Origin: Rhizophagus irregularis
Lineage: Eukaryota
Length of the DNA stretch: 64,000 nt
NCBI RefSeq assembly: GCF_026210795.1
Contig: NC_089430.1
Coordinates: 2,604,001-2,668,000, forward strand
Reading direction: 5' to 3'
Shown here: positions 540 to 31,324 of the stretch, piece by piece
Layout: each line of letters begins with the position of its first letter
Numbering within the stretch: position 1 is the stretch's first letter
Translations under genes and position numbers: made by a program
The notes under the pieces: generated by a model
The model's database searches: none
What the model was told of the DNA's origin: nothing
What the model saw: the letters and a program-made list of their open reading frames with translations, nothing else

Positions 540-3500
540 ATGTCAACTTACGGTCTTTGTTTTTCAACTGAAATAGGAATAAATCCTATTCCTTTACGAA
601 ATGTTATTATCGGAGCTAATAGTAAGCCGGTTTACTTGACAATTTTTTTTATTTATGATATGAAAATGATATTTCATTTAATTCTCTTTAAATATTAGTC
701 GTTGATATGATCGCTGAAGGTTCGTAGTTTGGTCAAATTATATGATATGATTTTTTTTTAAATATTTATACTATAATTCTATAATTCATCTTTAATAGTT
801 ACTATCAGACAAACTTATAAAAATGTTGAAAGAGATACTATCGAAGCATTCTATAAGTTTCCTATTTATGAAGCCGCAGCAATCTGCGAATTTGAAGCAG
901 AAATTGATGGACGAAGAAAAATAAAAGGCATCGTAAAAGAATCAAAAGAGGCCGCTAAAGAATATACTGAAGCAGTTCAGGTAATATCTAATAAATTTAA
1001 AAATGATTTAATACATTTATTTTTATATATAAGTTTAATTGTTCTTGAATTGAATAGAAAGGACATGGTGCTTATTTGTTAGAATCTGAGTCCGAAGATG
1101 TGTTTCAATGTTCTGTTGGAAATATCACATCAGGACAAACCGTGGTTATTAAAATTACATATGTTACCGAGCTTAAACATGATTCTGAATCAGAGAAAAT
1201 TCGATTTATTCTACCAACTAATATCGCTCCAAGATATGGTTCTTCAGTATATTCGTCATCTTCAAATGATGGAAAAATTCTTAAACCTGATGTTGTATCT
1301 TATTCTAATAAAGCAGATTTTTATTTAGATCTTACTGTTACTTGCAGAATGACTTCAACTATTCAAAATATTGAATCACCTTCACATAAAATTTCTACTG
1401 AAATGAATATTGATGAGAATCCCAAAATTTCTAAAATTACTTTATCCGAACAAATTACTTATTTAGAAAAAGATTTTATTCTTATGATTAAAAGTAAAGA
1501 GATTGATCAACCACGGTAAATATTTTAATTAATAATTTTGTATTTATATATATATAATTTTTTTTTTATTTTTTTTATTTTTAATATAATTATATTTTTT
1601 TTAGAGCTTTTGTTGAATACAATCCTGAAACAGAAACTAATTGTGTTATGTTGACTTTGGTTCCAAAATTCTCGTTAAATGTAATCATGTCTGAGCTAGT
1701 TTTCATTGTAGATAGGTATGTCGCCTATGTAAATAATTTTTAAAGTGAAGTTTCCATTTAATTTACAATGAATTTTTATTTTTTTGAATATGAAATAGAT
1801 CGGGATCAATGGGTATTGAACCTATGAAGAAAGCCGCACAAGCACTTGAATTGTTATTGCATTCACTTCCTGAAAATTGCTACTTTAATGTAATATCCTT
1901 TGGATCTCGTTATGATTCTCTTTTTCCAAAAAGTCAACTTTATTCTGAAAAATCGTTGTCTAAGGCTCTTAATCTTGCTCAAACAATGACTTCAAATTAT
2001 GGAGGAACAAAAATTCATAATGTATTAGAATGGGTATTTAAAAATTCAAGAGATGATATGCCAATTTCTGTATTTCTTATTACAGATGGCAGAGTTTGGG
2101 ATGCTGATGAGATTGTAGAACTTGTACGTGAAAATGAAGAAAAAAAGAAAGATGATTTACGGCTTTTTTCATTAGGAATTGGTGATTCTGTTTCTCATAA
2201 TTTAGTTGAATCTGTTGCCCGTGCTGGTAGAGGATACGCTCAATTTGTAACAAATGATGAAAGAATGGATAGAAAAGTTATTGAAATGCTGAAAAGTGCA
2301 TTAAAACCACCAATTAAGGATTATAAAATTACTTGGACTAATACAGATCTTTTGGAATTAAATGATGATAAATCGGCTATTAGCTTTATGAGTGATGAGA
2401 CAGAATCTTTACCATCTATTAAGATTCAACAAGCTCCATATATTATTCCACCAATTTATACTGGTATTCGTTTTATGGCCTATTGTATTTTGGAAAAAAA
2501 TATTGAGCCATGTAAAACTATTACATTAAAAGCTACTTCTCATGATGATCGTCCTATGGTACTTGATATTCCTTTGGATCCTGTTACCTTACAAGGTTCA
2601 AAAATTCATAGATTAGCGGCAAGAAAACTTATTCAAGATCTTGATTATAAAAAATCATTTATTCATAAACATCCTAAAAATGTTGGTAAATTTATTCCAG
2701 CTTCATTCGTTAAAGAACATATTGTTAAACTTGGCAAAACTTATAATTTAGCTTCAAAATTTACAAGGTATAATTTATTTATTTATTTTCTTTATATAAA
2801 ATTTTTAAATAATGATGATTATCTTTTTTTATTATTAGTTTTATTGCAATCGATGAAAGAAATAATGAAATTAGTGAAGTTCTAATTAAATCTCGAACAA
2901 TTCCACAAAAAAGGAATGTTCCTCAATTAGCTCCTCAATTCAGTACATTACAATCAAGCAGTAATTTTATGACAATTGGAAGGGTAAGAAGAAATGTTAA
3001 TATTTTGTATATTTAAAATAATGAAACACACTTATTAACAGTAATATTAGTTAATGAATATGAGTGATTTTTATTAAATGATCCTTGATCAATTTAAATA
3101 TTAGTTTGCTACTACTGATACTGCCATTGCTGGCCTTGCTACCACTTCAAGGATTAATATAATGGATTTAGTAAGATCGGGGTCAGTAGTTTAAGTTTTT
3201 TTTTTGATTACGCTGTAAATGAGAAATAATTAAGAAATTATTTTCAATAGAATTCGATCTCTTGTATCGGCAAAATCCGGACCAAAAGAAACAAAAGAAG
3301 CACAATCAGTATCACTACTATATAGTGAATGTGGACTAAACATTGAATCTGAATTCAATCATAAAGAATCACAAATTGGAAGCGTATTTGACGATAGTAA
3401 ATCTGAAGTCAATCATAAGGAATCACAAATTGAAAATTTATTTGGATTTTTAGAATTACAGTCATTTGATGGTAAATTCTTATTAAATGATTCGTTTTAT

Positions 3501-3788
3501 AAATTTTTTTATAAGAATGATTTAAATGATTTCATCAATTTAAAACAAGAAATTATAAAAGAAATGGGTGATATTGGTATTAAAGAAATTGAAGAAATAT
3601 TAACTACTAGTATTGCATTGGCTTATCTGGAAATAATTATATTTAAAAAATTTAAAGATGAAAGTGAGTTGTGTTACGAAAAAGCTGTTAAAGCTTTAAA
3701 GAAAATGGTTGAAGATGAAGAAAAAGAAAAACTTATTGGGGAAAAAGCTAAAGAATGGATTAAAAATTGGGTTATTAATGGCAAATGA
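540..3788 (+). CDS. VIT-vWA (VWA5A-like) protein, array copy 1, multi-exon
   Basis: ATG at 540 (MSTYGLCF). 21-nt exon 699-719 (VDMIAE). VIT-type exons (YKFPIYEAAAICEFEAEIDG; LESESEDVFQCSVGNI). MIDAS DR|SGSM is split by an intron, with GGT and TDG present. Linker exons 2839-2983 and 3105-3181, last exon 3251-3788 (LQSFDGKF...KAKEWI). Manual GT-AG splicing keeps the frame open. Confidence 0.9.
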
Positions 3789-6065: not shown

Positions 6066-9000
6066 ATGCAAATTTACGGTCTTTGTTTTATTGGGCAGGG
6101 AGTAACTCCGATTCCTTTACAAAATGTTGTCGTAGAAGCTAATGGTAAATATCTTGATTCTATAATTTTTTCTTTTAAATTGCTATTCCAATTAATTTAA
6201 TCATATATTTAAATTATTTTTAGTCGTTGATATGATCGCTGAAGGTTCGTGTTGATCAATTATAAAATACTATTGTTCATAATTCATATTTTATTTATTT
6301 TATTTTATTTATTTATTTATTTTTTTATTTACTTATTTTTTTTATAATAGTTACGATTAGCCAAACTTATAAAAACGTTGAAAAAGATACTATCGAAGCA
6401 TTCTATAAGTTTCCTATTTATGAGGCCGCAGCAATCTGCGGATTTGAAGCAGAAATCGATGGACAGAGAAAAATAAAGGGTATCGTAAAAGAATCAAAAG
6501 AGGCCGCTAAAGAATATACTGAAGCAGTTCAGGTGAAATATTTTAATAATTTTCAACGTTATTTTTTTCTGTATGTAAATGAATTAATTCTCTTTTTTTT
6601 AATTAATCAGAAGGGACATGGTGCTTATTTGTTAGAATCTGAATCCGAAGATGTGTTTCAATGTTCTGTTGGAAATATTACATCAGGACAAACTGTAATC
6701 ATAAAGATAACATATGTTACTGAACTTAAACACGATTCTGAAACGGAGAAAATTCGGTTTGTTCTACCAACTAATATCGCTCCAAGATATGGTTCTTCAG
6801 AATATTCGTCATCTTCAAATGATGGAAAGATTCTTAATCCTGATGTTGTATCTTATTCTAATAAGGCAGACTTTTATTTAGATCTTGCTGTTACTTGTAG
6901 AATGACTTCAACTATTCAAAATATTGAATCACCTTCACATAAAATTTCTACTGAAATGAATATTGATGAAAATCCTAAAATTTCCAAAGTTACTTTATCC
7001 GAACAAATTACTTATTTAGAAAAAGATTTTATTCTTGTGGTTAAAAGTAAAGACCTTAATCAACCACGGTAAACATTTTAATTAATAATTTTGCATTTAC
7101 TTTCTTTTTTCCTTATTTTAATCGTTAATCTTTTTGATATAATCTCTTTTAGAGCTTTTGTTGAGTACAATCCTGAAACGCAAACTAATTGTGTTATGTT
7201 GACTTTGGTTCCAACATTTGCGTTAAATGCAACTATGTCCGAACTAATTTTTGTCGTTGATAGGTATGATATAATTCAATTATAAGTGTATTATTAAATT
7301 CATTTCATCTTTTTTTTATTTATTTATTTTTTTTTTGAATATGAAATAGATCTGGATCAATGGGAATTGAGCCTATGAAAAAAGCTGCACAAGCTCTTGA
7401 ATTATTATTGCATTCACTTTCCGAAGATTGTTACTTTAATGTAGTATCTTTTGGATCTCGTTATGATCCTCTTTTTCCAAAGAGTCAACTTTATTCTGAA
7501 ACATCTTTATCTAAAGCTCTTAATCTTGCTCAAACAATGACTGCAAATTATGGTGGGACCGAGGTTTTTAGTGCATTAAAATGGACATTTGAAAATTCAA
7601 GGGATGATATGCCAACTTCCGTATTTTTTCTTACGGATGGCGGAGTTTGGAATGTTGATCAAATTGTAGAACTCGTACGTGAAAATGAAGAAAAAAAGAA
7701 AGATGATTTACGACTTTTTTCATTAGGAATTGGTGATTCTGTTTCTCATAATTTAGTTGAATCTATTGCTCGTGCCGGTAAAGGATATTCTCAATTTGTA
7801 ACAAATGATGAAAGAATAGATAAAAAAGTCATTGGAATGTTAAAAAATGCATTGAAATCACCAATTAAAGATTATAATGTTACCTGGGCCAATGTCGAAC
7901 CATTCGAAGAAAAAGAATTAGACATAACTCCAATGGAAGTTGATAAACCTACTATTAGTTTTATGAGTGATGATAATACGGAACCACCACCACCAACCTT
8001 AAATATATTTACAGATATTAAAGTTCAACAAGCTCCATATTTTATTCCACCAATTTATTCTGGTGTTCGTTTTATAGTCTATTGTATTTTGGAAAAAAAT
8101 ATTGAACCATGTAAAGTTATTAGTTTGAAAGCTACTTCACAAGATGGTCCTATGAAACTTGATATTCCTTTAGATCCAGTTACTCTACAAGGTTCAAAAA
8201 TTCATAGATTAGCGGCAAGAAAACTTATTCAAGACCTTAATGATAAAAAATCATTTATTCATAAACATCCTAAAAATGCTAATAAATATATTCCAGCTTC
8301 ATTTGTTGAAGAACAAATTGTTAAGCTTGGGAAAACATATAATTTAGCTTCGAAATATACAAGGTAGTGTAAATTTACTTTTATAACTTTATTACATTTA
8401 TTTCTTAATAATAATATTATACTTTTATATATTTTTTATTAGTTTTATTGCAATCGATGAAAAAAATATTGAAACAGTTGTATCTGAATCTCAAACAATT
8501 CCACAGAAAAGAATCGTTCCTCAATATGCTAATTTAAATCTTGGATTTGGACGTATGTAAAAAAAAAATTGTTTTTAATTTATTTATGTATATGTTATTA
8601 ATTAATTATTTCTATATTATAGCTACATTTTTGTAAGTATTTTTTTTTCTTTATTCAAAAAAAAAAATTATTATAAACTTTGTTTTGTATATATATTTAA
8701 AAGTACTAATTCTTCTCAATTCGGTAGTTCTGCACAACAATCTCAACAACAGCAATCTCAACAACAGTTACTTGGCCAAAGGACTATTCGAGCCCAATCC
8801 GCCATCCAGCCTATTTTATTTAGACAAACTACACAATCGACTGGTTTTGGATTTGGACAAACTCGATCAGGATTTGGAAATGGTTTTGGAATGGGGCAAA
8901 CTACACAACCGACTGGTTTTGGATTTGGACAAACTACACAACCGACTGGTTTTGGACTTGGACAAACTACACAACCGACTGGTTTTGGATTTGGACAAGC

Positions 9001-10264
9001 TACACAACCGACTGGTGGTTTTGGATTTGGACAAGCTACACAACCGACTGGTTTTGGACTTGGACAAACTACACAACCGACTGGTTTTGGATTTGGACAA
9101 GCTACACAACCGACTGGTGGTTTTGGATTTGGACAAGCTACACAACCGACTGGTGGATTTGGATTTGGACAAGCTACACAACCGACTGGTTTTGGATTTG
9201 GACAAGCTACACAACCGACTGGTGGTTTTGGATTTGGACAAGCTACACAACCGACTGGTGGATTTGGATTTGGACAAGCTACACAACCGACTGGTTTTGG
9301 ATTTGGACAAACTGCTACCCAAACTAGCCAACCTAGTTTATTTGGACAAACTGCTGCCCAAACTAGCCAACCTAGTTTATTTGGACAACCTACTAATTCT
9401 CAAACTGGTTTTGGATTTGGACAAACTGCTACCCAAACTAGCCAACCTAGTTTATTTGGACAAACTACTGCCCAAACTAGCCAACCTAGTTTATTGGGAC
9501 AACCTACTAACCAACCTAGTTTATTTGGACAACCTACTAATTCTCAAACTGGTTTTGGATTTGGACAAACTGCTGCCCAAACTAGCCAACCTAGTTTATT
9601 TGGACAACCTACTAATTCTCAAACTGGTTTTGGATTTGGACAAACTGCTACCCAAACTAGCCAACCTAGTTTATTTGGACAAACTACTGCCCAAACTAGC
9701 CAACCTAGTTTATTGGGACAACCTACTAATTCTCAAACTGGTTTTGGATTTGGTGCCCAAACTAGCCAACCTAGTTTATTGGGACAACCTACTAATTCTC
9801 AAACTGGTTTTGGATTTGATTCAACTCATCGATCAAAATTTGCATTTGGTTCATTTGCACAATCACCATCACCAATAATTAACAACTCCAATATTAATCA
9901 TAAAGAATCACAGATTGAAAATTTATTTGAATTTTTGAGATTACAATCATTTAATGGTAAATTTTTACCAAATAGATCATTTTATGAATTTTTTTATAAA
10001 GATGATTTAAGTGATTTTAATAATTTAAAACAAGAAATTGAAAAAGAATTAAGTGAATTAAGTGAAAAAGAAATTGAAGAAATATTAAGCAATTGTATTG
10101 CTATTGCTTATTTGAAAATTATTATGTTTGATAATTTTAAAGATGAGTGTGAAATGTGTTATGAAAAAGTTGAAAAAGTTTTAAAGAAAATGATTGGAAA
10201 TATAGAGAAAGAAAGGATTATTATTGAAAGAGGTGAAGAGTGGATTAAAAATTGGAGAAAGTAA
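6066..10264 (+). CDS. VIT-vWA (VWA5A-like) protein, array copy 2, with an FG-repeat linker of about 310 aa
   Basis: ATG at 6066 (MQIYGLCF), same exon layout as the other copies, intact MIDAS. Exon 8443-8552, 10-nt microexon 8623-8632 and last exon 8728-10264 splice in frame into the GQATQPTGFGF/GQTATQTSQPSLF repeats and then the shared C-terminal domain (IENLFEFLRLQSFNGKF). Confidence 0.88.
8894..9817 (+). repeat. Coding minisatellite: 12 units of 33/36 bp (GQ[A/T]TQPT(G)GFG[F/L]), then about 14 units of 30-39 bp (GQT[A/T][A/T]QTSQPSL[F/L], GQPTNSQTGFGF)
   Basis: Near-identical nucleotide units are directly visible (ggacaagctacacaaccgactggttttggattt; caaactagccaacctagtttatt), with higher-order periodicity. 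Confidence 0.95.
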
Positions 10265-12370: not shown

Positions 12371-12577
12371 ATGCAAATTTACGGACTTTGCTTTATTATT
12401 GAAAGAAATAAATCCAATTTCTTTACAAAATGTTGTTATTGAAACTAATAATAATTTTATGTCAATAATTAATTTGTAATTATATTTTATTTTTTGTCCA
12501 TTATGAAGACGCAGTAGTCTGCGGATTTGAAGCAGAAATAGTAAAGGGTATTGTAAAAGAATCAAAAGATGTCGCAC
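12371..12577 (+). pseudogene. 5' remnant of a VIT-vWA gene
   Basis: Starts atgcaaatttacggactttgc like copies 2-4. It then has a frameshift, a lost GT donor and internal deletions (tatgaagacgcagtagtctgcggatttgaagcagaaat...gtaaagggtattgtaaaagaatcaaaaga), and ends at a polypyrimidine tract. Confidence 0.85.
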
Positions 12578-12656
12578 TTTCCCTTTCCCTTTCTCCTTCC
12601 TTTCCCCTTCCCCTATTCCCTTTTCCTCTCTCGCTTTTCCTTCCCTTTTTCTCCCT
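12577..12656. repeat. Polypyrimidine tract of about 80 bp
   Basis: Almost pure C/T (ctttccctttccctttctccttcc...), directly at the break point of the pseudogene. Confidence 0.8.
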
Positions 12657-13980: not shown

Positions 13981-16900
13981 ATGCAAATTTACGGACTTTG
14001 TTTTATTGTTGAACAGGAAATAAAACCGATTCCTTTACAAAATGTTACTGTTGAAGCTAATAGTAAGTTCATGTTGATTATAACTTATTTTTCAATTTTT
14101 TTTTATAATGATGTTCCAAAATTGATTAAATCCATTAATTGCCAATTTTTTTTAAAGTCGTTGATATGATCGCTGAAGGTACGTCAAATTTATATAAATG
14201 ATATTATGATTATTCATTGTGGTTTTTTTTATTTATTTTTTCTTTTTTTATTAGTTACGATCAGCCAGGCATATAAAAATATTGAAAAAGACACTATTGA
14301 AGCGCTCTATAAGTTCCCTATCTATGAAGCCGCAGCAATCTGCGGGTTTGAAGCAGAAATTGATGGTCAAAGAAAAGTAAAGGGTATCGTAAAAGAAGCA
14401 AAAGAGGCTGCGAAAGAGTATACTGAAGCAATTCAGGTAATATCAAATTTAAAATAATTTCAAAATATTATTTAATATAATTAACTTTCATTTTCTTAAA
14501 TGATTAGGAAGGACATGGTGCTTATTTGTTAGAATCTGAATCCGAAGATGTGTTTCAATGTTCTGTTGGAAATATTACATCGGAACAAACTGTAGTCATT
14601 AAGATTACATATGTTACCGAACTTAAACATGATTCTGAATCAGAAAAAATTCGATTTGTCCTACCAACTAATATCGCTCCAAGATATGGTTCTTCAGAAT
14701 ACTCGTCATCTTCAAATGATGGAAAAATTCTTAATCCTGATGTTGTATCTTATTCTGATAAAGCAGATTTTTATTTAGAACTTGCTGTTACTTGTAGAAT
14801 GACTTCAGCTATTCAAAATATTGAATCACCTTCACATAAAATTTCTACTGAAATGAATATTGACGGAAATCCTAAAATTTCTAAAATTACTTTGACCGAA
14901 CAAATTACTTATTTAGAAAAAGATTTTATTCTTGTTGTTAAGAGTAAGGACCTTGATCAACCACGGTAAATATTTCACGTAATTATTTTTTGTTTAATTA
15001 CTATAATTAAATTATTTAAATTTATTTCAGAGCTTTTGTTGAGTATGATCCTGAACTACAAACTAATTGTATTATGTTAACTTTGGTTCCAAAATTTTCA
15101 TTAAATACTACTATATCCGAATTAGTTTTTGTTGTTGATAGGTATGTTATAACTCAACTACAAATTGAAATTTTCTGTTCAATTAATAAAAAAAAATGTT
15201 TTAAACAGATCAGGATCAATGGATATTGAACCTATGAAGAAAGCCGCACAAGCACTTGAATTATTATTACGTTCCCTTCCTGAAGATTGTTATTTTAATG
15301 TAGTATCTTTTGGATCTGATTATGATTCTCTTTTTCCAAAAAGTGAACTTTACTCTGAAACATCTTTATCTAAAGCTCTTAATCTTGCTCAAACAATGAA
15401 ATCAAATTATGGGGGAACAGAAGTTTATAATGTATTAGAATGGGTATTTAAAAATTCAAGAGATGATATGCCAACTTCTATATTTCTTATTACAGATGGA
15501 GAAGTTTGGAATGTTGATCAAATTGTAGAACTTGTAAGTAAACATGAAGAAGAAAAGAACGATGATTTACGTCTTTTTTCGTTAGGAATTGGTGATTCTG
15601 TTTCTCATAATTTAGTTGAATCTGTTGCTCGTGCTGGTAAAGGATATGCTCAATTTGTAACAAATGATGAAAGAATGGATAAAAAAGTCATTGGAATGTT
15701 AAAAAATGCATTAAAACCACCAATTAAGGATTATAATATTACTTGGACTGAGGTCAATTTATTGGATGAAAAAGAATTAGATATGACTCCAATTGAAGTA
15801 GATAAACCTACTATTAGTTTTATGAGTGATGACAATATGGAACCACCATCACCACCACCAAGTGATATATTTTCTGATATTAAAGTTCAACAAGCTCCAT
15901 ATATTATTCCACCCATTTATTCTGGAGTTCGATTTATTGTCTATTGTATTTTAGAAAAAAATATTGAACCATGTAAAGTTATTACTTTAAAAGCTACTTC
16001 TCAAGATGGCCCTATGAAACTTGATATTCCTTTAGATACAGTTACTTTACAAGGTTCAAAGGTTCATAGATTAGCGGCAAGGAAACTGATTCAAGATCTT
16101 AATGATGAAAAATCATTTATTCATAAACATCCTAAAAATGCTAATAAACATATTCCAGATTCATTAGTTAAAGGACATATTGTTAAACTTGGTAAAACCT
16201 TTAATTTAGCCTCGAAATATACAAGGTATAAAATTCATTTAATTATATTTACGATTAATTTATTTTGTATATTACCTATTAATTATAATTTTTTATAGTT
16301 TCATTGCAACTGATGAGCGAAATAATGAAAGTTTATCCGAGGCTCAAATAATTCCACAGAAAAGAGAAGTCCCTCAATTAATTACATCGTATAGAACGGT
16401 ACACAATTTGAGTTCATTTAGCATGAGTTCCGTAATGGGTAAAAATTAGTATTTGTATATTTTTATTTATTTATTTTTTTTTTAAAAAAAAGAAAACAAT
16501 TAATAACATTAATTTAATTTATTCATATTCACTAAGTGCAAAGTTTCTGTATGTTTGTTTTATAATTTTATTTATTTAATGGATTGAAATAATGACACTC
16601 ACTTAAATTAATCGAATATTTATATGATTTATTAGTGGTTAGTTCAGAAGATCTAGTTGAAGAGTTAGTATACAAGTTCATTTATGTTCTTATAATATGA
16701 GGATGATAACTAATATTTTTTTTTTCAAAATTTTTTTGTTTCAAGAAGTCCACAAGCATCGCAACAGGAAGTTAATGTTATTCATCAAGAACCAAAAATT
16801 GAAAATTTATTCGAATTTTTGGGATTACAATCATTTGATGGTAAATTCTTACCTAATAAAACATTTTATGAGTTTTTTTATAAAAATTATTTAGATGGTT

Positions 16901-17157
16901 TTAATAACTTTAAACAAGAAATTGAAAAAGAATTAAGTGAATTAAGTGAAAAGGAAATTGAAGAAATATTAACTAGTTGTATTGCTATTGCTTATTTGAA
17001 AATTGTTATGTTTGATGATTTTAAAGATGAATGTGAAATGTGTTATGAAAAAGCTGAAAAAGTTTTTAAGAAAATGATTGGAAATAATGAAAAAGAAAAA
17101 ATTATTATTGAAAAAGCTGAAGAATGGATTAAAAATTGGGTCAATAATAGTGATTAA
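13981..17157 (+). CDS. VIT-vWA (VWA5A-like) protein, array copy 3
   Basis: ATG at 13981, conserved exons and MIDAS. The linker is encoded by the end of exon 16299-16438 plus microexons 16537-16548 (12 nt) and 16636-16663 (28 nt). Last exon 16746-17157 is in frame. Confidence 0.9.
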
Positions 17158-17425: not shown

Positions 17426-18900
17426 ATGGCTGCTATTAGAAACGAGACTGTTTTGGCTGCAATTATTAGAGCTAGTGCATTAACAGATCCTAATATTCAC
17501 AATGACATAACCAAACTATATGAATTTCGAAAACAAACACTTCTTGATGATGAATCTCTTACAGCAGATGAAAGAACGGAAGCAATAAAAAAATTAACAA
17601 TAAATTATGATCATAATAAACTTTTATTTAATGAAGGAACGAAAAGACGATGTGAAAATTGTTCTTTAGAATGTTTGGCAACGTCATATTGTGAACATTG
17701 TGTTCGAAACTATTTAAAAAATAATTTTTCAAATTGGACATCTGGAAATAGTGACATTGATGATTTAATAAAAGAATGTCAAATAAAATCATTTCGCCCA
17801 GATAAATTGATTGAATGGATACCATAGAAAAATTTACAAAATATTGAATATATGACTAAAGGTGGATGCAATAAAATTTATTCAGCAAATTGGATTAGTG
17901 AAGAATATGTCAAATGGAATTCTAAAGAACGACAATTAACATTTAAAGTAGTACTTAAAGAATTAGGAAATATTGAAGCTGCTAATAGAAGTTGGTTTGA
18001 TGAGGTTTATATCTGTTTTGAATTTATTTATAAATTTTTTTTTTTATTAATTAATAACTTATTAATATTGTATAAAATATTTATAGGCAAAATCACATTT
18101 GATATTAAGTAACAAATATACAGACTTTGTAGGATGTTGTGGTTTAACTCAAGATTCATCAAGTGGAAATTATATGCTTGTAATGCATTTATTGGATATG
18201 GATTTAAGAAAATATTTACAAAAGCATCAATGTACATGGGAAGAAAAAATACATGTAGTCTGGCATTTAATTGTGGCACTTCGTAGAATTCATTACAATG
18301 ATGCAATTCATCGAGATTTACATTCTGGAAATGTTTTATATTCACAATAGAAACTCTTTATTATAAAATTCAAAAAATGTGGCACGATATTCAAAATGGT
18401 AAATTTAATACTTCGGAATATAATGATTCGTCTCAAATTCAATCAAATTCAAATTCTAATCTATATTTGTTATCAATGAGTAAATTTTATCAATTTGAAA
18501 ATTTACCGGAACCAAAAAATGCAACTGAAGGTAAGCAAATAAGTTAATTATTTAATTTGGTAATTATTTTCCTTTATATTAATAATGTCAATTTAAATAA
18601 TTTAAATGAACAGGAGAACAAGAAGGTAAATAATTATAATATCATTTTCGTAATACGTAATTTTTTATAACCTTTCTTATAACAATTTATTTAAATATAT
18701 TAACTCTAAATAATTTTTTTATAGAATTTCCTAGCAAACCTTACGATTTTGAAATACCCAATAATAGTGAGTTTATTTGAAAATAGTAATATTCTTTTTT
18801 TTAAAAACAAAATTTCTATGCTTAATTATTTTTTATATTTTATTAGTTTGAAGATTTGTAATTCAGCAAAAAAGATCAAGATGAACTTAGATTTATTTGA
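17426..18900 (+). pseudogene. TKL-type protein kinase pseudogene (Cys-rich N-terminus)
   Basis: Paralog of the kinases at 37729 and 62108. In-frame TAG at 17825-17827 replaces the Tyr of WIPY. After HRDLHSGNVLYSQ* most of the C-lobe (DFG to APE to DxWS region) is deleted. The NLPEPKNATE tail and small tail exons are retained. Confidence 0.88.
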
Positions 18901-22479: not shown

Positions 22480-23200
22480 TATTTATAATTTTATTTATTT
22501 AACGGATTAAACAATAATATCCATGAAAAAAATCCTTAAATAAAAAAATAAAATATTAACGAAATCTTTATATAATTTATTTAGTTAGTAATTTCGGTGG
22601 AGTTAAATGAGTTAGTCCAAAATTAGTGAAAAAGCATAGGTTTGTTTATATTATAATATGAGAATTATCATTGATATGTATTATTGAAAAAATGAATTTT
22701 TTTTTCAATGTATTGTAGAAAAGATAGAAAAAAGGAATTAATGAAACTAAGAGTTTTTCTGCCAGCATCACCAGCATCATCAGTATCACATATTGAAAAT
22801 TTATCCAAATCTTTAGGATCACAATTATCCAATAATAATGAATTGTTACCAAAGAAAGTTAATGTTAATTATAAAGAGCCAAAAATTGAAAATTTATTTG
22901 AATTTTTAGGATTACAATCATTTAATGGTAAATTTTTATCAGATAAATCATTTTATGAATATTTTTATAAAAATGATTTAAATGATTTTATTAACTTAAA
23001 ACAAGAAATTGAAAAAGAAATTAAGTAAATTAAGTAAAAGAAATATTAAGTAATTGTATTGCTATTGCTTATTATGTTTGATAATTTTAAAGATGAATGT
23101 GAAATGTATTATGAAAAAGTTGAAAAAGTTTTAAAAAAAATGATTGGAAATAATGAAAAAGAAAATATTATTATTGAAAAAGCATTAAAAATTGGATTAA
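22480..23200 (+). pseudogene. 3' remnant of a VIT-vWA gene (linker plus C-terminal helical domain only)
   Basis: ...KVNVNYKEPKIENLFEFLGLQSFNGKF...KQEIEKEIK* followed by deletions and frameshifts. The upstream intron resembles the copy 3 and 4 linker introns. No VIT or vWA exons are seen upstream. Confidence 0.85.
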
Positions 23201-23764
23201 ATAATAATAGATAAGGAAAAGCATAAATTTGTTAGAATTTAAATATTTGAATATTATTTTTATTATTTGGAATATTATATATTAACATATTAACATAAAG
23301 TTGGTTATACATACATACTATAGTTTATACATTTACATTAAATAAAAAAAATTTAACATATATTAAGTTAATAAGGTACTTCACTTAATAATTAATTAAA
23401 ATGATGATATTAAATTTGTTGGTAAAAATAAAAAATCAAATTACTTTCTTTTTGTCAGCTATAATTCCATTAATTTAATAATTTAATAGTAGATTTAATA
23501 ACAATATTCTTTAAATATTCAATAAATGCAATATTATTTGTTATCGTTCAGCCAAAATAGGATCATGCAGATTTTCATAGACCGATATTTTTATTAGCCA
23601 TAGCAATAACACATGATTGATATAATAAAGTGCGAGTAAAAAAATGGCGCAAATGAATATTTTGTAGGAAAAGTTTAAATAAAGCTTATAAAAATGAAAT
23701 TTATGATGTTATTAATTAATGCATGATCAAAAACGTCAGAACGATAACACTTTTATTGGATGTC

Positions 23765-24045
23765 TATCGGTCACAGGGCCCTTCATTAGTCCTGTTCAAA
23801 ATCGTTTGGTCGCATTTTTTGGTCGGTTGTGGTTTAATTTGATTGGCCGGATCTTCTTGCATTTGTTTGCGCCACCGATCTTTTAGACCAATATTTTTTT
23901 ATGTTTTTTGGATCGAACTTTTTCTACCAATAAGATTGCTTTATTCCTAACTGATCGAAAAATGATTTTGAACAGGGCTATTTATTGGTGAAAATGGCCA
24001 CTACGTGGCCCATTTTCATCCAATCATTCGGTCCTGTGACCGATA
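23765..24045. mobile_element. Nested elements: a 194-bp TIR MITE (23787-23980) inside a short foldback element
   Basis: Inner TIRs tagtcctgttcaaaatc / gattttgaacagggcta. Outer TIRs tatcggtcacagggcc / ggtcctgtgaccgata, plus an internal hairpin tgaaaatggccac-tac-gtggcccattttca. Confidence 0.75.
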
Positions 24046-25344
24046 TAGCTACTCCCCATGTATTTGTAAATTAGATATTTCAAAGCCTAATAAGTTCCAG
24101 AAATATATATATACAGTATGTGTAAGTAAAGTTATGCAGTGTAAGGTTTTGATTTGTGTAGAGTTTGTAGAGTTTGTATATAGTCAGATTACATATTTTT
24201 ATAAAATTGGCATTTAATATACCACTTTTTGCATGTTATCTAACTACCGTTCGTTATATTGATATGATATACTGATATACACATTATTGATATCTAACAA
24301 ATAAATTTATTTATATATATATTTGTATTACTATAATTTATTAATTATACATCTCATTTTTTTTTAACACATATAGTTAAGCTTTAATATAATAATACAT
24401 CAGGATCTTGATGGTATATATATAAAACTATCAACATAGAAATCAGAAATTTTTAAATTTTAAGTACATGTTCTATCAAGTTTATTACTATTCTCATAAG
24501 AAACCCATGTGAGGAAACCAAATAAGCATTGGCTATGACTACATTATTATTACATTATCGCATTAGTAATTGTATCTGATATTATTAAGAGAACCTTTGT
24601 TTATGATCGGTTTGTCCGTGGCGCAGCATATGATCGTCAATGATCATTATTTTTTGGCCGATGAGAATCATTATAAAGAATATACAAAATTGAGAAATAT
24701 AAATTTAGAAAGACTAGAAAGTAATGAAATCTGGAAAAGAATATATGAACTGATAGAGAATAGTGATAAAGAGATATAAAGAATTATGTAATGAAAAGCA
24801 TTAGATACAGTTAAAAATAATAAAGCAGCTGATTTAAATGGTATACCATATAAATTGTTGAAAATACAGCAAAGAAGTTTTTAGATTGTAATTGGTTTAC
24901 TTATGAATCAATGTATGATTCAATCAGTAGTATTATGCTTGAAAAAGTCTACAAAGAACAAACATCATTTATATTTTGTCTAATGATAGTAATAATAATT
25001 TATTTTAAATGTTATAAATTCAAGTTTTATTTTATTTTTAATTATTTATTATAAGGAAATACGAGCATTCTTATTTTTTTTTTTAAAAAAAAATTTTTTT
25101 TACAATTATGAAAGTGATCGCTACTTCAAAAGTATTTTTTTGTAATAAAGTTAAATTAAATATAATTAACAACTTTGCTTATAATATAAAAGGCAGATTA
25201 ATTATTGAAAAAAAAATCTTTACTTAAAAGCATGTTTGCATAACTATAATAGCGAATTATAGGTAGTCCAATACTTTAGTGTATTATATATTATAAAATT
25301 ATATCTTTTTTAAAATGAAATTTACAATACATAAATTCCTCTTA

Positions 25345-25647
25345 CTAATATTTATTACAATAAGTTTCACTAACACATATGCCATCATCAAGACAAGCAT
25401 GACTACAGTCACATAACCAATGAGGTCGTGTTGATTTGAGACATTTGCTTGGAAACGCATAATTAGTGAATTTATCGTTACAATCATCGTCTGTATGACA
25501 TCCATAAACACATGTGCCCATCGTTCCTGATACTGTTGAACGTACATATCCTTGTGGACAACTTGGGCTCTTGGGAACTTCCTGAGTGTTGCATATAAAA
25601 AAGATGGTGAAGGCAAGGATTAGGATTGGAAAGATTCGATTGTGCAT
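25345..25647 (-). CDS. Small secreted cysteine-rich protein (100 aa), candidate effector or antimicrobial
   Basis: Intronless ORF MHNRIFPILILAFTIFFICNT-QEVPKSPSCPQGY...YCNKY. Hydrophobic signal-peptide-like N-terminus, 10 Cys in the mature part, TATAAAA about 85 bp upstream. Confidence 0.75.
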   Translation of the reverse strand: MHNRIFPILILAFTIFFICNTQEVPKSPSCPQGYVRSTVSGTMGTCVYGCHTDDDCNDKFTNYAFPSKCLKSTRPHWLCDCSHACLDDGICVSETYCNKY

Positions 25648-27514
25648 TTTGACAGGCAATATTTAATTCTGAAAAAAATATTTATTATTATGCACAATTG
25701 AAAGTATTAATCATACATGATTCACATCCTTTTTATAATAAAAGTGTTTGATCGTATCTTATGATCTTGTAATTATCGGATGATCAATTACATGACAAAA
25801 ATCAGGCAATCAACCTGAAAAGTAAAATATTAAACACAAGATCCTTTCAAAACATTTGAATATGTAATTGGTTATTAATTTGCAAATCCAGAAATCATTC
25901 CATTTTAAAGTTCGGCCACGACCGAAAATAGCATGTCCAGAACTTACTTCAATAATTTCTTCTTTTTTAATTAATGCATTTTTTCTGCCATATCATTCTT
26001 TAAGTTTAAAGATAATAAGTATTACTGCTCAGGTGGATATATGGTCAAACGAAAAGATATATTTAGTTTTCTGAAATAAATGCAGTTGTTTCGAGTTTCG
26101 ACGAAAAAAAAAGTCACGTGGATAATTGATTGAATTTTGAATTTGATTAACGAAGCATGTTTTTAAATAGTTCAAAGAATTTATCATCATAATGAGTTCT
26201 AGCTTGCTTATGCGACTATAACCTTTTAAGGAAAAATCCCAAGAAAAAGAGAATACAATGCTATTATATTAAAAATTATGAAAAATTTTGTAATAACAGC
26301 TTGAAATGATATGTACAGTACAGGAATTTTTCATCGAAGAATACTTCGCGCTAGATTTTCTACCATTGTTGCTACTGTAATTAGTATGCATCATATTTTT
26401 AAAAACTTTAATTACCACCCGCTAAATCAGATAGATCATTCCGACTAAGAAAGACGAGAAAATTGAGCGGTTACAATTTCTCTCTATATTATTATTATGA
26501 TGTTGATGCAAAAAATTTATTTACATTCTTTTACGCAATCAATCTAATCTGTTTGTTTATACAGTATACATATATATAGATATAGATATTAACAATCCAT
26601 TAACTCGGATTAAGAATATAAATTGATCATTTCCTAAATTTTGACATCAAAGTTGACATATCATTCAAAGTAATAATCTCTTATCAACAAAAGAGCCAGT
26701 CCTTTAAGAAATAACAGTTGCTTTACATGCCTAGTGTCAAGAATTGCATGCTTTTCGCATTATTGATAATCCCGTTTCAACATTCAGAAATTTTTTTTTT
26801 CTAACAATTATTAAATATATTTTTATTTTATTATTTTATTATTGTATACAATAAATACTTCTACGTCATAGATAAAGAAAAATAAAGCCAGTTTCACTTA
26901 AAATGTGTATTTCTACTAGGAAAAGTTATTCACATTGACAACGGAAAAGGAATTCCGGGAATTTGTCTGGAATTTGTCCAGATAATATCTGAATAATGTC
27001 ATATTTCGGTACGTTTTCCGGACGTTTTCTGCAAATTCCTATTATCGAAGCCTTACCTAAGTAAAATTTTAAAATTTAATAATTATGTTTATTATACCTA
27101 GTTATTTTATTTATTAGTACAAAAGATAAAATTTATTTTACAATAGTTTAGTACTTTAATAACTTCATAACTATCAGAATAATATTATTTTTAGAATTTT
27201 AAAAATTGCTCAATAATGGTTGATCGTAACTTTAGTGTTATAAGCTTTATTTAATAAGTGCTCTAATTATTTGAAATTATTTGAGAAAGATGTTTTGTAC
27301 GCGTTTCTAAAAGAGTGACATTATCCTGCCCGTATTATTCATTAATATCAAACTTGTTCTGTAGTATTATTCATAATTATATTAATCTTTTTTGCCGGTT
27401 TTGCCGGTTTTTACATGATATAACTCGTAAGGATAAATCAACGAGTTGTTATATACTGCATAACTGACTCTTTAGGCACGAAGAAATGTTATATATTTTT
27501 AGATGAGTTTGAAA

Positions 27515-27596
27515 TTACAAATTGAAGATTTATCTGATGTTAAATCTAAAGTTAATTATAAGGAATCATAAATTGAAAATTTATTTGAATTTTTTG
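27515..27596 (+). pseudogene. Tiny relic of the VIT-vWA last exon
   Basis: caaattgaagatttatctgatgttaaatctaaagttaattataaggaatcataaattgaaaatttatttgaattttt aligns by eye with copy 1 at 3372-3450 (QIGSVFDDSKSEVNHKESQIENLFGF). Confidence 0.6.
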
Positions 27597-28125
27597 TAAT
27601 ACATTTCCAACATTTACGGAAATCAAAGCAACTTGATAATTTCCATATTTTGAGGCTATGAATTCCGTGAATATGATACATTTACAGAAATAACATTGAA
27701 TAAAAAAAAACACGGAATAAATTTATATTCGGGTATGAGTATCCAAAATTGAATATTCCGCAACGATAAATTATTATCTTCGTTTGTTTGCGTTAACATT
27801 TAAGCGACATTTCTTGCAGAAATTAATAAAAATGATATTAAAGCTAAGTTTTTAAAGCAAAAAAAGCATCAAATAAATTTCTATCATACAAAAAAAAATA
27901 TTATTTTTATTGGAAAGTTCTTAAACATGCGAGCATTGTTGAGTCAAACTTACACTCATCGAGTAAGTTGATGACGATCTTATTTTAAACGCCTAAAATT
28001 TAGCCAAATTGGCCTAAATGGGTTAATGAATGACGTATAAACTTTATAAATTCAAAAATAAATACTGTATTTATTTATATCTCACTTAAACTTGATTCAA
28101 CTTCTATTATATATTTTTTCCCAAA

Positions 28126-31100
28126 ATGCAAATTTACGGACTCTGCTTTGTTGTTGAACGAGAATTAAAACCAATTCCTTTACAAAATGTTGCTGTTGAA
28201 GCCAATAGTAAGTTGTTGTAATTATTTTAATTATTTTAATTATTTTTTCATTTTCGTTATAATGATATTCCCTAAATTGCAATTTTTTTTTTAGTCGTTG
28301 ATATGATCGCTGAAGGTTCGTTAAATTTATCGAATAAAAATTCTATTAGGATTATAGTTTATATAGTATTAATCTATTTTATTTTTATAGTTACGATCAG
28401 CCAGACTTACAAAAATGTTGAAAAAAATACCATTGAAGCTCTCTATAAATTTCCTATTTATGAAGCCGCAGCAATCTGCGGCTTTGAGGCGGAAATTGAT
28501 GGACAGAGAAAAGTAAAGGGTATCGTAAAAGAATCAAAAGAGGCCGCCAAAGAATATACTGAAGCAGTTCAGGTTATATCTGATAAATTTAAATAATTTC
28601 AAAGTTTATGTATATATAAGTTAAATTGATTTTCATTTTCTTGAAATGATTAGGAAGGACATGGTGCTTATTTGTTAGAATCTGAATCTGAAGATGTTTT
28701 TCAATGTTCTGTTGGAAATATTACGTCAGGACAAACCGTAGTCATGAAGATTACATATGTTACCGAACTTAAACATGATTCTGAATCTGAGAATATTCGA
28801 TTTGTTCTACCAACTAATATCGCTCCAAGATATGGTTCTTCGGAATATTCATCATCTTCAAATGATGGAAAAATTCTTAATCCTGATGTTGTGTCTTATT
28901 CTAATAAAGCAGATTTTTATTTAAATCTTGCTATTACTTGTAGAATGACTTCAACTATTCAAAATATTGAATCACCTTCACATAAAATTTCTACTGAAAT
29001 GAATATTGATGAAAATCCTAAAATATCTAAAATTACTTTAACTCAACAAACTACTTATTTAGAAAAAGATTTTATTCTTGTAGTTAAAAGTAAAGACCTT
29101 GATCAACCTCGGTAAATATTTTACGTAATTATTTTTTTATTTTTTATTTTAATATAAATAATTAAAATTCTTTATATTTCTTTCAGAGCTTTTGTTGAGT
29201 ATAATCCTGAAACAAAAACTAACTGTGTTATGTTAACTTTGGTTCCAAAACTCTCATTAAATACTACCATATCTGAACTAGTTTTTGTTGTTGATAGGTA
29301 TGATATAATTTAATTACCAAGTGAAATTTTCTGTTCAATTAATAAAAAAAAAAATTTAAAAAATTTTTTAATTAGATCGGGATCAATGAGTGTTGAACCT
29401 ATGAAAAAAGCTGCACAAGCACTTGAATTGTTATTACGCTCACTTCCTGAAGATTGTTACTTTAATGTAATTTCTTTCGGATCTCATTATGATTCTCTTT
29501 TTCCAAAAAGTCAATCCTATTCTGAAACATCTTTATCTGAAGCTCTTAATCTTGCTCAAACAATGAAATCAAACTATGGAGGAACAGAAATTTATAGTGC
29601 ATTAGAATGGGTATTTGAAAATTCAAGGGATGATATACCAACTTCTGTATTCCTTCTTACAGATGGTGAAGTTTGGAATGTTGATCAAATTGTAAGACTT
29701 GTAAGTCAAAATGAAGAAAAAAAGAAAGATGTTTTACGTCTTTTTTCATTAGGAATAGGCGATTCTGTTTCTCATAATTTAGTTGAATCTGTTGCTCGTG
29801 CTGGTAAAGGATATGCTCAATTTGTAACAAATGATGAAAGAATGGATAAAAAAGTCATTGGAATGTTAAAAAATGCATTAAAACCACCAGTTAAGGATTA
29901 TAATATTACTTGGACCAATGTTGATCTATCGGAATCAAAGGAAAAGAAAGAGTTACAAGCGGAAGTTAAATCCGCTACTAGTTTTACGAATGATAATACA
30001 GAATCACCATCACAAAGTGATATATTCATTGATACTAAAGTTCAACAAGCTCCATATATTATTCCACCTATTTATCCTGGTGTTCGATTTATTGTTTATT
30101 GTATTTTGGAAAAAAATATTGAACCACGTAAGATTATTACTTTAAAAGCTACTTCCCAAGACGGCCCTATGAAACTTGATATTCCTTTGGATCCAGTTAC
30201 TTTACAAGGTTCAAAGATTCATAGATTAGCGGCAAGGAAACTTATTCAAGATCTTAATGATGAAAAATCATTTATTCATAAACATCCTAAAAATGCTGAT
30301 AAGCATATCCCAGATTCATTAGTTAAAGAACATATTGTTAAACTTGGTAAAACTTATAATTTAGCTTCAAAATATACAAGGTATAATTGTATTAAATTAA
30401 TAGTATTTATTATAATTTAATTATATTTTTTACTTATTTTTTATATTTTTTTTATTTGTAGTTTTATTGCAATTGATGAAAGAAACAATGAAACTGTATC
30501 TGAAGCACGAACAATTCCACAGAAAAGGGAAGTTCCCCAGTTTTTTGCAGGAAAAGCTAGCTTTTTTTTAGCTTCTTCAAGTATGAATATTAGTGGTCCA
30601 GGTAAAAAAAATTGTATTATGTATTTTTTTTTTTTAAAAAAAAAGAGAAAAAATTTAACATTAATTAATTTTAATATTATAAATTAAGCGAGGAAAGCGA
30701 AAAGATCATGTACGTATACTTATTTTATAATTTATTAAAAAAAAATTTTTGAACCAAAAAAAAGATTAATCGAATCGAATATTTACATAATTTATTAGTT
30801 GCCGTTGGATTACAGCAAGAGTCGGTATACATGTTTTATTATATTATTTTAATATGAAAGGGTTATTGATATAAAATTTTTTTTTCCAATATAGTACTCC
30901 ATTGCAAGTTACGCCAGCAGCACTACAGAAAGTTAACGTTAATCATAAAGAGCCAAAAATTGAAAATTTATTCGAGTTTTTAGGATTACAATCTTTTGAT
31001 GGTAAATTCTTGCCAAATAAATCATTTTATGAATTTTTTTATAAAAATGATTTGAATGATTTCATCAATTTAAAACAAGAAATTGAAAAAGAGATTGGTA

Positions 31101-31324
31101 AGACTGATGTTGAGGAAATATTAAGTACTTGTATTGCTATTTCTTATCTGGAAATTATTATGTTTGAAAAATTTAAAGATGAAAGTGAAATGTGTCATGA
31201 AAAAGCTGAAAAAGCTTTAAAGAAAATGGTAGAAAATGAAGGAAAAGGAAAAATTATTATTGAAAAATCTAAAGAATGGATTAATAATTGGATTAATAGT
31301 GATAGCGAAAAGAAAGAAGAATGA
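28126..31324 (+). CDS. VIT-vWA (VWA5A-like) protein, array copy 4
   Basis: ATG at 28126, conserved exons and MIDAS. The linker is encoded by the end of exon 30462-30601 plus microexons 30689-30709 (21 nt) and 30799-30820 (22 nt). Last exon 30895-31324 is in frame. Confidence 0.9.

What the first reader, a model, noticed from the sequence alone, without database searches (positions are those of the whole stretch)
540..31324. Tandem VIT-vWA array: constant scaffold with one hypervariable, microexon-built cassette (candidate bait/decoy or sensor system)
Seen: four intact paralogs are nearly identical across the VIT, vWA and C-terminal helical domains, and the 21-nt exon 2 TCGTTGATATGATCGCTGAAG is identical in all four. 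Between ...IPQKRxVPQ and xNHKExxIENLF they carry unalignable, low-complexity linkers of about 45 to about 400 aa. Copy 1 is S/T/A-rich, copy 2 has FG repeats, copy 3 is S/V/E-rich, and copy 4 has a basic GPGARKAKRSF motif. Three more decayed copies lie in between. Known: VIT-vWA is the architecture of ITIH heavy chains, PARP4 and VWA5A, and alpha-2-macroglobulin/TEP proteins use a variable disordered bait region in a conserved scaffold. Inference: a diversifying intracellular surveillance family whose variable loop is a protease bait, decoy or localisation tag, placed in an immune-like neighbourhood (MLKL-like gene, TKL kinases, secreted Cys-rich peptide).
Basis: partly seen in the sequence, partly recalled or inferred. 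Interest (0 to 1): 0.85.

Follow-up and report, generated by a model that had tools for sequence, protein, structure and literature searches.

The report
Fungal bait loops mimic self-proteins
Four neighbouring genes of a mycorrhizal fungus share one protein scaffold but carry different, fast-changing loops, and across this family the loop often holds look-alike pieces of vital cell proteins (nuclear-pore repeats in one copy here, histone tails in sister genes), so it likely serves as bait for attacking enzymes.

Summary
Observation confirmed with small corrections. The window (Rhizophagus irregularis) holds four intact VWA5A-type genes (VIT-vWA-helical end domain), 82-88% identical in the N-terminal scaffold, plus three relic fragments. 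Their predicted-disordered loops (45-410 aa) are unalignable. Between copies 3 and 4 the loop exons diverged more than the introns around them; copies 1-3 have divergent loop alleles (copy 1's seen spliced in RNA contigs of two studies), copy 4 does not. Copy 2's loop matches Nup98-type FG repeats; sister paralogs carry histone H4 and H3 tail copies; 37 of 136 family representatives carry pieces resembling H3, Pol II CTD, Ran, ribosomal stalk, SNAREs or FG nucleoporins (motifs chosen after looking). Loops of copies 1, 3 and 4 match nothing. The loop sits where PARP4's positively selected exon 30 lies, and ITIH4 uses an equivalent region as protease bait. Best reading (0.55): a cytosolic bait-and-trap with integrated self-decoys; main rival: docking handles for the cell's own machines. 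No function was tested. Ten paper searches found no such description; this scan noted single mimics before on other DNA.

The parts
540..3788 (+). Copy 1, intact VWA5A-type gene, 9 exons, 860 aa; loop 98 aa, no recognisable look-alike; a second, very different loop allele exists in other isolates
   Evidence: identical to P0039; spliced RNA contigs; alleles
2928..3410 (+). Copy 1 variable loop region (end of exon 7, exon 8 at 3105-3181, start of exon 9)
   Evidence: intron 3182-3250 spliced in runs X15 and X23
6066..10264 (+). Copy 2, intact gene, 9 exons, 1181 aa
   Evidence: identical to P0145
8524..9895 (+). Copy 2 loop, 410 aa, 44 FG dipeptides, 7 charged residues; Nup98-type FG repeat look-alike; includes a 10-nt microexon at 8623-8632
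   Evidence: Pfam Nucleoporin_FG 42.3 bits, cut-off 32.2; microexon path spliced in a relative's contig, run X16
12371..12576 (+). Relic 5' fragment of a further copy
   Evidence: blastn; tblastn
13981..17157 (+). Copy 3, intact gene, 10 exons, 820 aa; loop 45 aa built with predicted microexons 16537-16548 and 16636-16663
   Evidence: identical to P0014; microexons predicted, no read support
22810..23205 (+). Relic 3' fragment (end domain with stops and frame breaks)
27513..27603 (+). Short relic 3' fragment
   Evidence: blastn 81% over 95 columns, E 6e-16; not seen by tblastn
28126..31324 (+). Copy 4, intact gene, 10 exons, 823 aa; loop 50 aa built with predicted microexons 30689-30709 and 30799-30820
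   Evidence: identical to P0001; model
699..719 (+). 21-nt exon 2, identical at 6224, 14158 and 28295; part of the VIT domain
30944..31321 (+). Helical end domain of copy 4, predicted to dock on the vWA domain and so close the loop

Best explanation
These are four intact VWA5A-type genes whose fast-changing loop likely works as bait: it displays look-alikes of exposed parts of essential host proteins, and an invading protease or modifying enzyme that attacks it would be trapped or reported by the scaffold. Shown: gene structure, loop divergence, allele differences, the look-alike sequences, and an intact MIDAS motif in all four copies. Predicted: an ITIH-like fold, a disordered loop, and an end domain docked on vWA helices away from the MIDAS, which makes the loop a closed tether. 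Inferred from ITIH4: cutting the loop shifts the end domain or the scaffold, and the metal-binding vWA domain then holds the enzyme, or the freed parts signal. Inferred from the evolution: duplication, loss and loop replacement keep the bait set matched to changing attackers (endobacteria, mycoparasites, viruses).
For: 1) Loop exons outrun neutral DNA: copy 3 vs 4 loop introns are 64-72% identical (z 4.2-5.7; best of 72 non-orthologous intron pairs z 2.7), the loop coding DNA only 56% (z 0.9), scaffold synonymous sites differ at 24%; 0 of 100 neutral simulations fell to z 0.9 at 24, 30 or 35% change, 4 of 100 at 41%. 2) Alleles: copy 1 loop 22-23 of 96-97 aligned residues differ plus 25-26 unaligned, against 10-20 of 519-756 in the scaffold (4 of 4 other records); one copy-3 record 10 of 45 against 4 of 775; one copy-2 record 58 of 337 against 3 of 765. 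The other copy-1 allele is spliced in RNA contigs of two studies: about 216 nt where the window has 186, matching its 72-73 codons, with only 11 differences in 1572 flanking nt. 3) Look-alikes: copy 2 loop is above the Nucleoporin_FG cut-off and its only non-family hits, 3 of 8, are Nup98-Nup96-type proteins; paralogs P0027, P0033, P0157 hold H4-tail and H3-tail copies in one loop (P0027 699-727 = H3 2-30, E 3e-7; z 8-21), kept better than the spacers between them (33 of 46 vs 20 of 50, p 0.002); P0417 holds the Ran/Gsp1 tail (E 2.6e-6); Synaptobrevin above cut-off in P0340, P0342, P0350, P0380; Pol II CTD in P0313; four EF hands in L033. 37 of 136 representatives carry a motif, shuffles at most 2 per motif, the 3.5-fold larger scaffold 1 hit. 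13 of 136 combine two or more motifs. 4) FG loops appear in two separate clades and H3-like motifs in three (quick tree). 5) The loop lies between the points that align to PARP4 about 1185 and 1569; PARP4 exon 30 (1223-1582) is disordered and under positive selection (PMC4038475, passages). ITIH4 is cleaved in a variable bait region and then traps the protease through its MIDAS (PMC7793589, passages). 6) End domain docks on vWA: score 0.64, best control 0.00, runs agree in at least 91% of contacts, partner pLDDT at least 85; the mark was reached by 51 of 78 solved and 2 of 108 mismatched pairs; both chains are parts of one protein, so the pass may reflect likeness to known folds.
Against: No cleavage, binding, induction or phenotype was tested. 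Loops of copies 1 (allele P0147) and 4 have no PDB match at E up to 10, and copies 1, 3 and 4 match no other representative's loop above shuffles: in the window only 1 of 4 loops is a recognisable look-alike. Copy 4 loop alleles differ at 0-2 of 48-50 residues (4 of 4 records, p at least 0.06) and the unlinked paralog P0129 at 0 of 50 (3 of 3). No codon-level dN/dS could be computed for the loop. 99 of 136 representatives carry none of the motifs; motifs were chosen after reading the loops, and no control set of unrelated disordered regions was available. FG repeats are low-complexity and can converge. Two suspected look-alikes (P0419, P0400) were not confirmed. Known intracellular relatives have non-immune roles: Dictyostelium Vwa1 works with an F-box protein in development (PMC10539598), and a homolog is a fixed part of the trypanosome flagellar doublet (9e5c chain 4s). 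Bacterial homologs have the same variable loop without eukaryotic look-alikes.
Confidence: 0.55

Rival explanations
1. The borrowed pieces are docking handles for the cell's own machines: each paralog is steered to, or recruits partners at, the pore (FG), chromatin enzymes (H3/H4), translation factors (stalk tail) or SNAREs, and the scaffold acts there as an adaptor, for instance for ubiquitin ligases.
For: Look-alike segments are conserved at protein level; H3 K9, S10, T11 and the H4 16-19 basic patch are kept in P0027, P0033 and P0030; Dictyostelium Vwa1 binds FbxwD and SCF parts (PMC10539598, abstract and discussion); a homolog is built into the flagellar doublet; PARP4's end domain is a targeting domain for the vault (PMC12280208, passages).
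Against: One loop can mix pieces from unrelated machines (stalk + CTD in P0313, P0361, P0401; stalk + Ran in P0417; H3 + FG in P0402). Sister paralogs 95% identical in the scaffold swap loops (P0014 vs P0129: 619 of 650 vs 17 of 45), and alleles of one gene carry different loops, which fits a housekeeping address poorly.
Confidence: 0.25
2. The loop is a dispensable tether that drifts, gains repeats and tolerates chance insertions from highly expressed genes; the array is ordinary birth-and-death duplication.
For: Disordered linkers evolve fast (established knowledge); loop length ranges 68-658 aa among 136 representatives; three of four window loops match nothing; relic fragments show turnover; part of the apparent allele differences may be annotation of microexons.
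Against: Loop exons diverged more than introns and synonymous sites; look-alike segments are kept better than spacers in 3 of 3 paralog pairs; H4 and H3 tails from two different genes sit together in one loop; the same few donors recur in distant lineages.
Confidence: 0.12
3. The loop senses the cell's own proteases or modifying enzymes (stress, vacuole leakage, programmed death) rather than foreign ones, with the same trap or switch mechanism.
For: ITIH4's shown targets are host proteases (PMC7793589); an MLKL_N-like kinase-Sel1 gene lies 1.6 kb downstream (MLKL_N match is below the curated cut-off).
Against: Endogenous enzymes change slowly, so they give little reason for loop replacement between alleles and recent paralogs.
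Confidence: 0.08

Closest known systems
VWA5A/BCSC-1 and Dictyostelium Vwa1 (intracellular VIT-vWFA proteins, clade B2 of PMC10539598)
   Same: VIT, vWA with MIDAS, hybrid strands, three-helix bundle, long disordered loop, helical end domain predicted to dock on vWA away from the MIDAS; lineage-specific duplication
   Different: That paper (abstract, evolution section and first part of the discussion read) treats the loop as a tether and describes no self-protein look-alikes, allele diversity or defence role
ITIH4 (bait-type protease inhibitor, PMC7793589)
   Same: Same fold (ITIH1 top Foldseek hit, E 1e-31; ITIH4 E 5.5e-37); a long variable region after the scaffold; MIDAS intact
   Different: ITIH4 is secreted, has a beta-propeller end domain (PMC11538491, passages) and a proline-rich bait acting on host plasma proteases; trapping is shown there and untested here
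PARP4 (ITIH-like region, exon 30, MINT/MVPID)
   Same: [quoted passage not shown]
   Different: No BRCT, WGR or ADP-ribosyltransferase domain here; vault binding untested; no look-alikes reported for exon 30 in the passages read
Integrated decoys of plant NLRs, protease tripwires of NLRP1/CARD8, alpha-2-macroglobulin bait regions (recalled, not searched)
   Same: A copy of a host target, or a cleavable variable region, wired into a conserved scaffold
   Different: Unrelated scaffold: no NB-ARC/NACHT, FIIND or thioester domain was reported by Pfam for these proteins

Membership tests
VWA5A/Vwa1-type intracellular VIT-vWFA proteins | VIT followed by vWA domain | tested here: met
   Pfam VIT and VWA_3 above cut-off
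VWA5A/Vwa1-type intracellular VIT-vWFA proteins | ITIH-like fold of the scaffold | tested here: met
   AF2 model pLDDT 80, pTM 0.81; Foldseek top hits ITIH1 6fpy/6fpz
VWA5A/Vwa1-type intracellular VIT-vWFA proteins | MIDAS residues (DxSxS, T, D) | tested here: met
   DRSGS, GGT and TDG in 4 of 4 copies; T355 and D381 invariant in 65 sequences
VWA5A/Vwa1-type intracellular VIT-vWFA proteins | No signal peptide | tested here: met
   By inspection: the VIT-homologous region starts about 14 residues after the Met; no predictor was run
VWA5A/Vwa1-type intracellular VIT-vWFA proteins | Helical end domain joined by a disordered loop and docked on vWA | tested here: met
   Loop 646-694 pLDDT under 50; helical domain pLDDT 87; docking 0.64 vs control 0.00 on residues 299-310, 333-338, 440-450; predictions only
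ITIH4-type bait protease inhibitor | Variable protease-susceptible region after the scaffold | tested here: inconclusive
   Variable and predicted disordered; cleavage not tested
ITIH4-type bait protease inhibitor | Cleavage- and MIDAS-dependent protease capture | not testable with these tools
   Needs biochemistry
ITIH heavy chains (clade A2) | Secreted, with ITIH-type C-terminal domain | tested here: not met
   No signal peptide by inspection; helical end domain; Pfam gives no ITIH C-terminal family
PARP4/vault PARP | ADP-ribosyltransferase region N-terminal to VIT | tested here: not met
   Proteins begin at VIT; profile aligns to PARP4 from residue 615
PARP4/vault PARP | MINT/MVPID end domain | tested here: inconclusive
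   Weak profile match to PARP4 1569-1642 (3.4 bits, independent E 150); Foldseek found no match at E 0.001; the wide VIA search could not be run
FG nucleoporin (for copy 2) | FG repeats in a low-charge S/T/Q/N/G-rich region | tested here: met
   44 FG, 7 charged of 411 residues; Pfam above cut-off
FG nucleoporin (for copy 2) | Nucleoporin anchoring domains | tested here: not met
   Pfam shows only VIT, VWA and Nucleoporin_FG-type matches in P0145: a look-alike, not a nucleoporin

The most novel reading that the evidence does not exclude
VWA5A-type proteins are an unrecognised, eukaryote-wide cytosolic bait-and-trap immune system: an ITIH4-like scaffold that recruits copies of the exposed tails of essential host proteins (histones H3/H4, FG nucleoporins, Pol II CTD, Ran, ribosomal stalk, SNAREs, calmodulin) into one loop, so that each loop is a record of what pathogens attack; PARP4 exon 30 is the vertebrate version, and this array is a diversifying bait repertoire of a mycorrhizal fungus.
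Probability: 0.45. Interest if true: 0.93.

Novelty: new variant of a known kind. Interest (0 to 1): 0.8.

Why it matters
It would give a function to a widespread, poorly understood family (human VWA5A, PARP4's linker, fungal and protist VIT-vWA proteins), extend the integrated-decoy principle to a non-NLR scaffold in fungi and protists, and make the open question of how arbuscular mycorrhizal fungi defend their shared cytoplasm directly testable: the loops name candidate targets, and one engineered cut tests the mechanism.

Tried and rejected
No whole genome is held for the window, so paralog and allele data come from public protein models. Region search with the histone-like loop of P0027 was swamped by fused histone gene models: 119 of 119 other listed rows carry the histone family, so it showed the match but found no further VIT-vWA carriers; P0251 proved to be a histone fusion without VIT or vWA. 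PDB sequence searches with the loops of copy 1 (allele P0147) and copy 4: 0 hits at E up to 10; copy 3's loop was not searched against the PDB. Loop-against-loop comparison of 11 Glomeraceae loops with the representatives: the four window-type loops tested did not exceed shuffles; P0037 and P0022 slightly did, with unconvincing alignments. Suspected SNAP-25-like (P0419) and Spt5/UAP56-like (P0400) pieces, recalled from memory, were not confirmed; a bZIP-like piece in P0428 was not confirmed. End domain alone: no Foldseek match at E 0.001 among 28 weak rows. The metagenome scan gave 80 loci, only 2 Glomeraceae-like and those identical over the printed part, so no intron-level allele comparison. 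The careful tree did not finish; the quick tree is cited. A frameshift reading of the two copy-1 alleles was considered by eye and rejected: the window DNA does not encode the other allele's segment in any frame. The neighbourhood argument was down-weighted: TKL kinases and Sel1 genes are strongly expanded in these fungi (recalled; one search found 0 papers with 4 of 5 terms).
Full report
What is there. The window comes from Rhizophagus irregularis: exon 6 of copy 4 is 100% identical to P0001, named for that species. Exon models built from coordinates give four open reading frames with GT..AG introns and shared phases for introns 1-6; they are identical to stored proteins P0039 (860 aa), P0145 (1181 aa), P0014 (820 aa) and P0001 (823 aa). 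The 21-nt exon 2 is exact in all four. Pfam gives VIT and VWA. The N-terminal scaffold is 81.8-87.8% identical and the end domain 64.0-79.5%; scaffold dN/dS is 0.21-0.44. The loops are 98, 410, 45 and 50 aa and do not align above shuffles in 6 of 6 pairs. Three relics lie between the genes: a 5' piece at 12371-12576 and 3' pieces near 22810-23205 and 27513-27603. Four R. clarus proteins with neighbouring locus numbers fall in the same clade, three of them as orthologs of copies 1, 2 and 4, so the array predates the species split.

Splicing. RNA contigs of runs X15 and X23 (two studies) skip introns 1716-1798, 2768-2838 and 3182-3250 of copy 1; a contig of X16, a relative, runs through the copy-2 microexon path into the FG region. 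X13 is unspliced and behaves as DNA. Contigs show presence only.

Structure. The AlphaFold2 model of copy 4 (65-sequence alignment) has mean pLDDT 80 and pTM 0.81, with residues 646-694, the loop, under 50. Foldseek ranks ITIH1 first (E 1e-31), then a trypanosome flagellar protein (9e5c chain 4s, E 6e-22). All four copies keep the MIDAS residues. Folded as two chains without the loop, the end domain docks on vWA helices (299-310, 333-338, 440-450), away from the MIDAS: score 0.64, best of 3 controls 0.00, at least 91% of contacts shared between runs, partner pLDDT at least 85; this mark was reached by 51 of 78 solved and 2 of 108 mismatched pairs, and on eukaryotes by 71 of 105 and 2 of 126. 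The two chains are parts of one protein and a like protein is solved, so the pass may reflect likeness. The same docking was predicted for Dictyostelium Vwa1 and human VWA5A (PMC10539598, discussion). A family profile aligns to PARP4 from residue 615 to 1193 and weakly again at 1569-1642, which places the loop over PARP4 exon 30, residues 1223-1582, disordered and positively selected in primates and bats (PMC4038475, passages). The end domain alone has no significant fold match.

Is the loop evolving faster than neutral DNA? Copies 3 and 4 share exon structure through the loop. Their three loop introns are 64-72% identical (z 4.2-5.7), like their scaffold introns (62-77%) and above all 72 non-orthologous intron pairs (best z 2.7), while the 101/104 nt of loop coding DNA align at 56% (z 0.9) and the constant half of the same exon at 80% (z 14). 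Simulated neutral drift never fell that low at 24-35% change (0 of 100 each) and did so in 4 of 100 at 41%. This rests on one pair of genes. Among isolates, copy 1 has two loop classes (22-23 of 96-97 aligned residues differ, 25-26 unaligned; scaffold 1.3-3.7%), copy 2 varies in repeat number and content, and one of four other copy-3 records differs at 10 of 45 against 4 of 775; copy 4 (4 records) and paralog P0129 (3 records) are nearly invariant. These are protein models from different pipelines, but the second copy-1 class is confirmed: the X15 and X23 contigs carry about 216 nt where the window has 186, matching its 72-73 codons, with 11 differences in 1572 flanking nt for X23. The window's copy-1 loop looks like the derived form, since R. 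diaphanus and R. clarus resemble the other class (inference). Copy 3 and the unlinked P0129 are 619 of 650 identical in the N-terminal scaffold but 17 of 45 in the loop.

What the loops contain. Copy 2's loop has 44 FG dipeptides and 7 charged residues in 411, passes the Nucleoporin_FG cut-off, and of 8 hits among 7979 candidates the 3 outside its own orthologs are Nup98-Nup96-type proteins. Paralogs elsewhere in the genus hold a histone H4 tail copy and an H3 tail copy in the same loop: P0027 699-727 matches H3 2-30 (E 3e-7), with z 8-21 against shuffles for P0027, P0033, P0030 and P0157, and these segments are kept better than the spacers in 3 of 3 pairs (p 0.0005-0.0025). A profile search found 31,718 representatives at E 0.001 and listed 150; 136 had both loop anchors. 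37 of the 136 carry at least one of 11 motifs: Pol II CTD 10, FG 10, ribosomal stalk tail 9, H3 5, SNARE-like 4, Ran tail 3, and three motifs whose donors I only recall (3 proteins rest on these alone); shuffles gave at most 2 per motif and the scaffold 1 hit in 105,084 residues. The motifs were picked after reading the loops. Unbiased Pfam scans of the 130 new representatives at E 0.01 gave Nucleoporin_FG 8, Synaptobrevin 4, Rpb1 repeat 2, Ribosomal_60s 1, V-SNARE_C 1. P0417 858-898 matches yeast Ran/Gsp1 174-214 (E 2.6e-6); locus L033 has four EF hands between scaffold and end domain. Carriers include Ascomycota, Mortierella, chytrids, Gonapodya and an amoeba transcript. On a scaffold-only quick tree of 50 rows, FG loops occur in the copy-2 clade, nested among non-FG siblings, and in a separate older clade; H3-like motifs occur in one Glomeraceae clade and apart from it in P0054 and P0093. 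Loops of copies 1, 3 and 4 match nothing found, and 99 of 136 representatives show no motif.

How it most likely works. Shown: a conserved MIDAS-bearing scaffold with a loop that is replaced faster than introns drift and that repeatedly holds pieces of essential proteins. Predicted: the loop is disordered and closed by an end domain docked on vWA. From the literature: ITIH4, on the same fold, is cut in a long variable region and then holds the protease in a MIDAS-dependent complex (PMC7793589, passages). Inferred: the loop is bait. The donors are exposed tails and repeats that pathogen proteases and modifying enzymes are known to attack (recalled: viral proteases cut FG nucleoporins and histone H3, bacterial enzymes modify histone tails and cut SNAREs, ribosome-inactivating proteins grip the stalk tail). 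An enzyme that attacks the copy would be captured, or would unlatch the end domain and start a signal. Mixed donors in one loop and swaps between alleles fit this better than fixed addressing. I put it at 0.55; docking handles for the cell's own machines at 0.25; neutral tether at 0.12; sensor of the cell's own enzymes at 0.08.

Neighbourhood. An MLKL_N-like (E 6e-4, below cut-off), TKL kinase and Sel1 gene lies at 32896-35254; a broken kinase-type gene lies at about 17426-18900, similar to genes near 36800-37600 and 62200-63000; a 100-aa cysteine-rich ORF with a hydrophobic N-terminus lies at 25345-25647 on the minus strand, with no Pfam match above cut-off.

Known or new. The family (VWA5A/Vwa1 type), the disordered loop, the docking of the end domain, PARP4's selected exon and ITIH4's bait mechanism are in print. 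PMC10450202 (passages) suggests viral cleavage of PARP4's linker. Ten searches found no paper on self-protein look-alikes or decoys in VIT-vWA loops; the library lacks most subscription papers, and supplements were not read. Papers seen: PMC10539598 abstract, evolution section and first part of the discussion; PMC7793589, PMC4038475, PMC10450202, PMC12280208 and PMC11538491 passages; others as search listings only. This scan has noted single cases on other DNA (H3, Ran and stalk tails; an R-SNARE motif; CTD heptads; a five-gene invertebrate array). I saw these after my own tests, and they are unchecked AI notes, not support. What this window adds is the evolutionary test (exons vs introns, alleles, sister paralogs) next to a look-alike loop in one array. 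Verdict: real, a new variant of a known kind, mechanism untested; interest 0.8.

Noticed in passing
P0027, P0033, P0157, P0175, P0026 (paralogs outside the window): Histone H4 and H3 tail copies in one loop, tripled H3 motif in P0157, eroded to a short remnant in P0175 and P0026: gain, amplification and decay within one clade.
   Followed up: yes
L033:34-3363: VIT-vWA protein of an unnamed GC-rich organism with a calmodulin-like four-EF-hand unit inserted in the loop.
   Followed up: partly
L003, L005, L007, L009, L011, L023, L025, L041: GC-rich, intronless (apparently bacterial) homologs with the same VIT-vWA, variable loop and end-domain motif.
   Followed up: no
PDB 9e5c chain 4s: A homolog that includes an end-domain-like part is a component of the T. 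brucei flagellar doublet; the loop position there was not examined.
   Followed up: no
window 25345-25647 (-): About 100-aa cysteine-rich ORF with a hydrophobic N-terminus inside the array; only weak WAP and late-nodulin Pfam matches.
   Followed up: partly
window 32896-35254 (+): MLKL_N-like helical domain, TKL kinase and Sel1 repeats in one gene.
   Followed up: partly
window 17426-18900 (+): Kinase-type gene with an in-frame stop at 17825-17827, similar to genes near 36800-37600 (-) and 62200-63000 (+).
   Followed up: no
window 3354-3430 (+): Copy 1 has a duplicated NHKESQI segment just before the end domain, shared with R. diaphanus but not R. clarus.
   Followed up: no
P0351, P0372, P0373, P0417, P0425, P0366, P0340, P0399, P0400: Further recurring loop motifs (FDFDxF, LQDYQ, IDYxDEE) whose donors I recall as conserved transcription and RNA-export proteins; not confirmed by any search.
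   Followed up: partly
window 45700-58200: Housekeeping-type genes read by eye (patatin-like lipase, fumarylacetoacetate hydrolase-like, RWD-domain, Atg22-like transporter); labels recalled, not tested.
   Followed up: no
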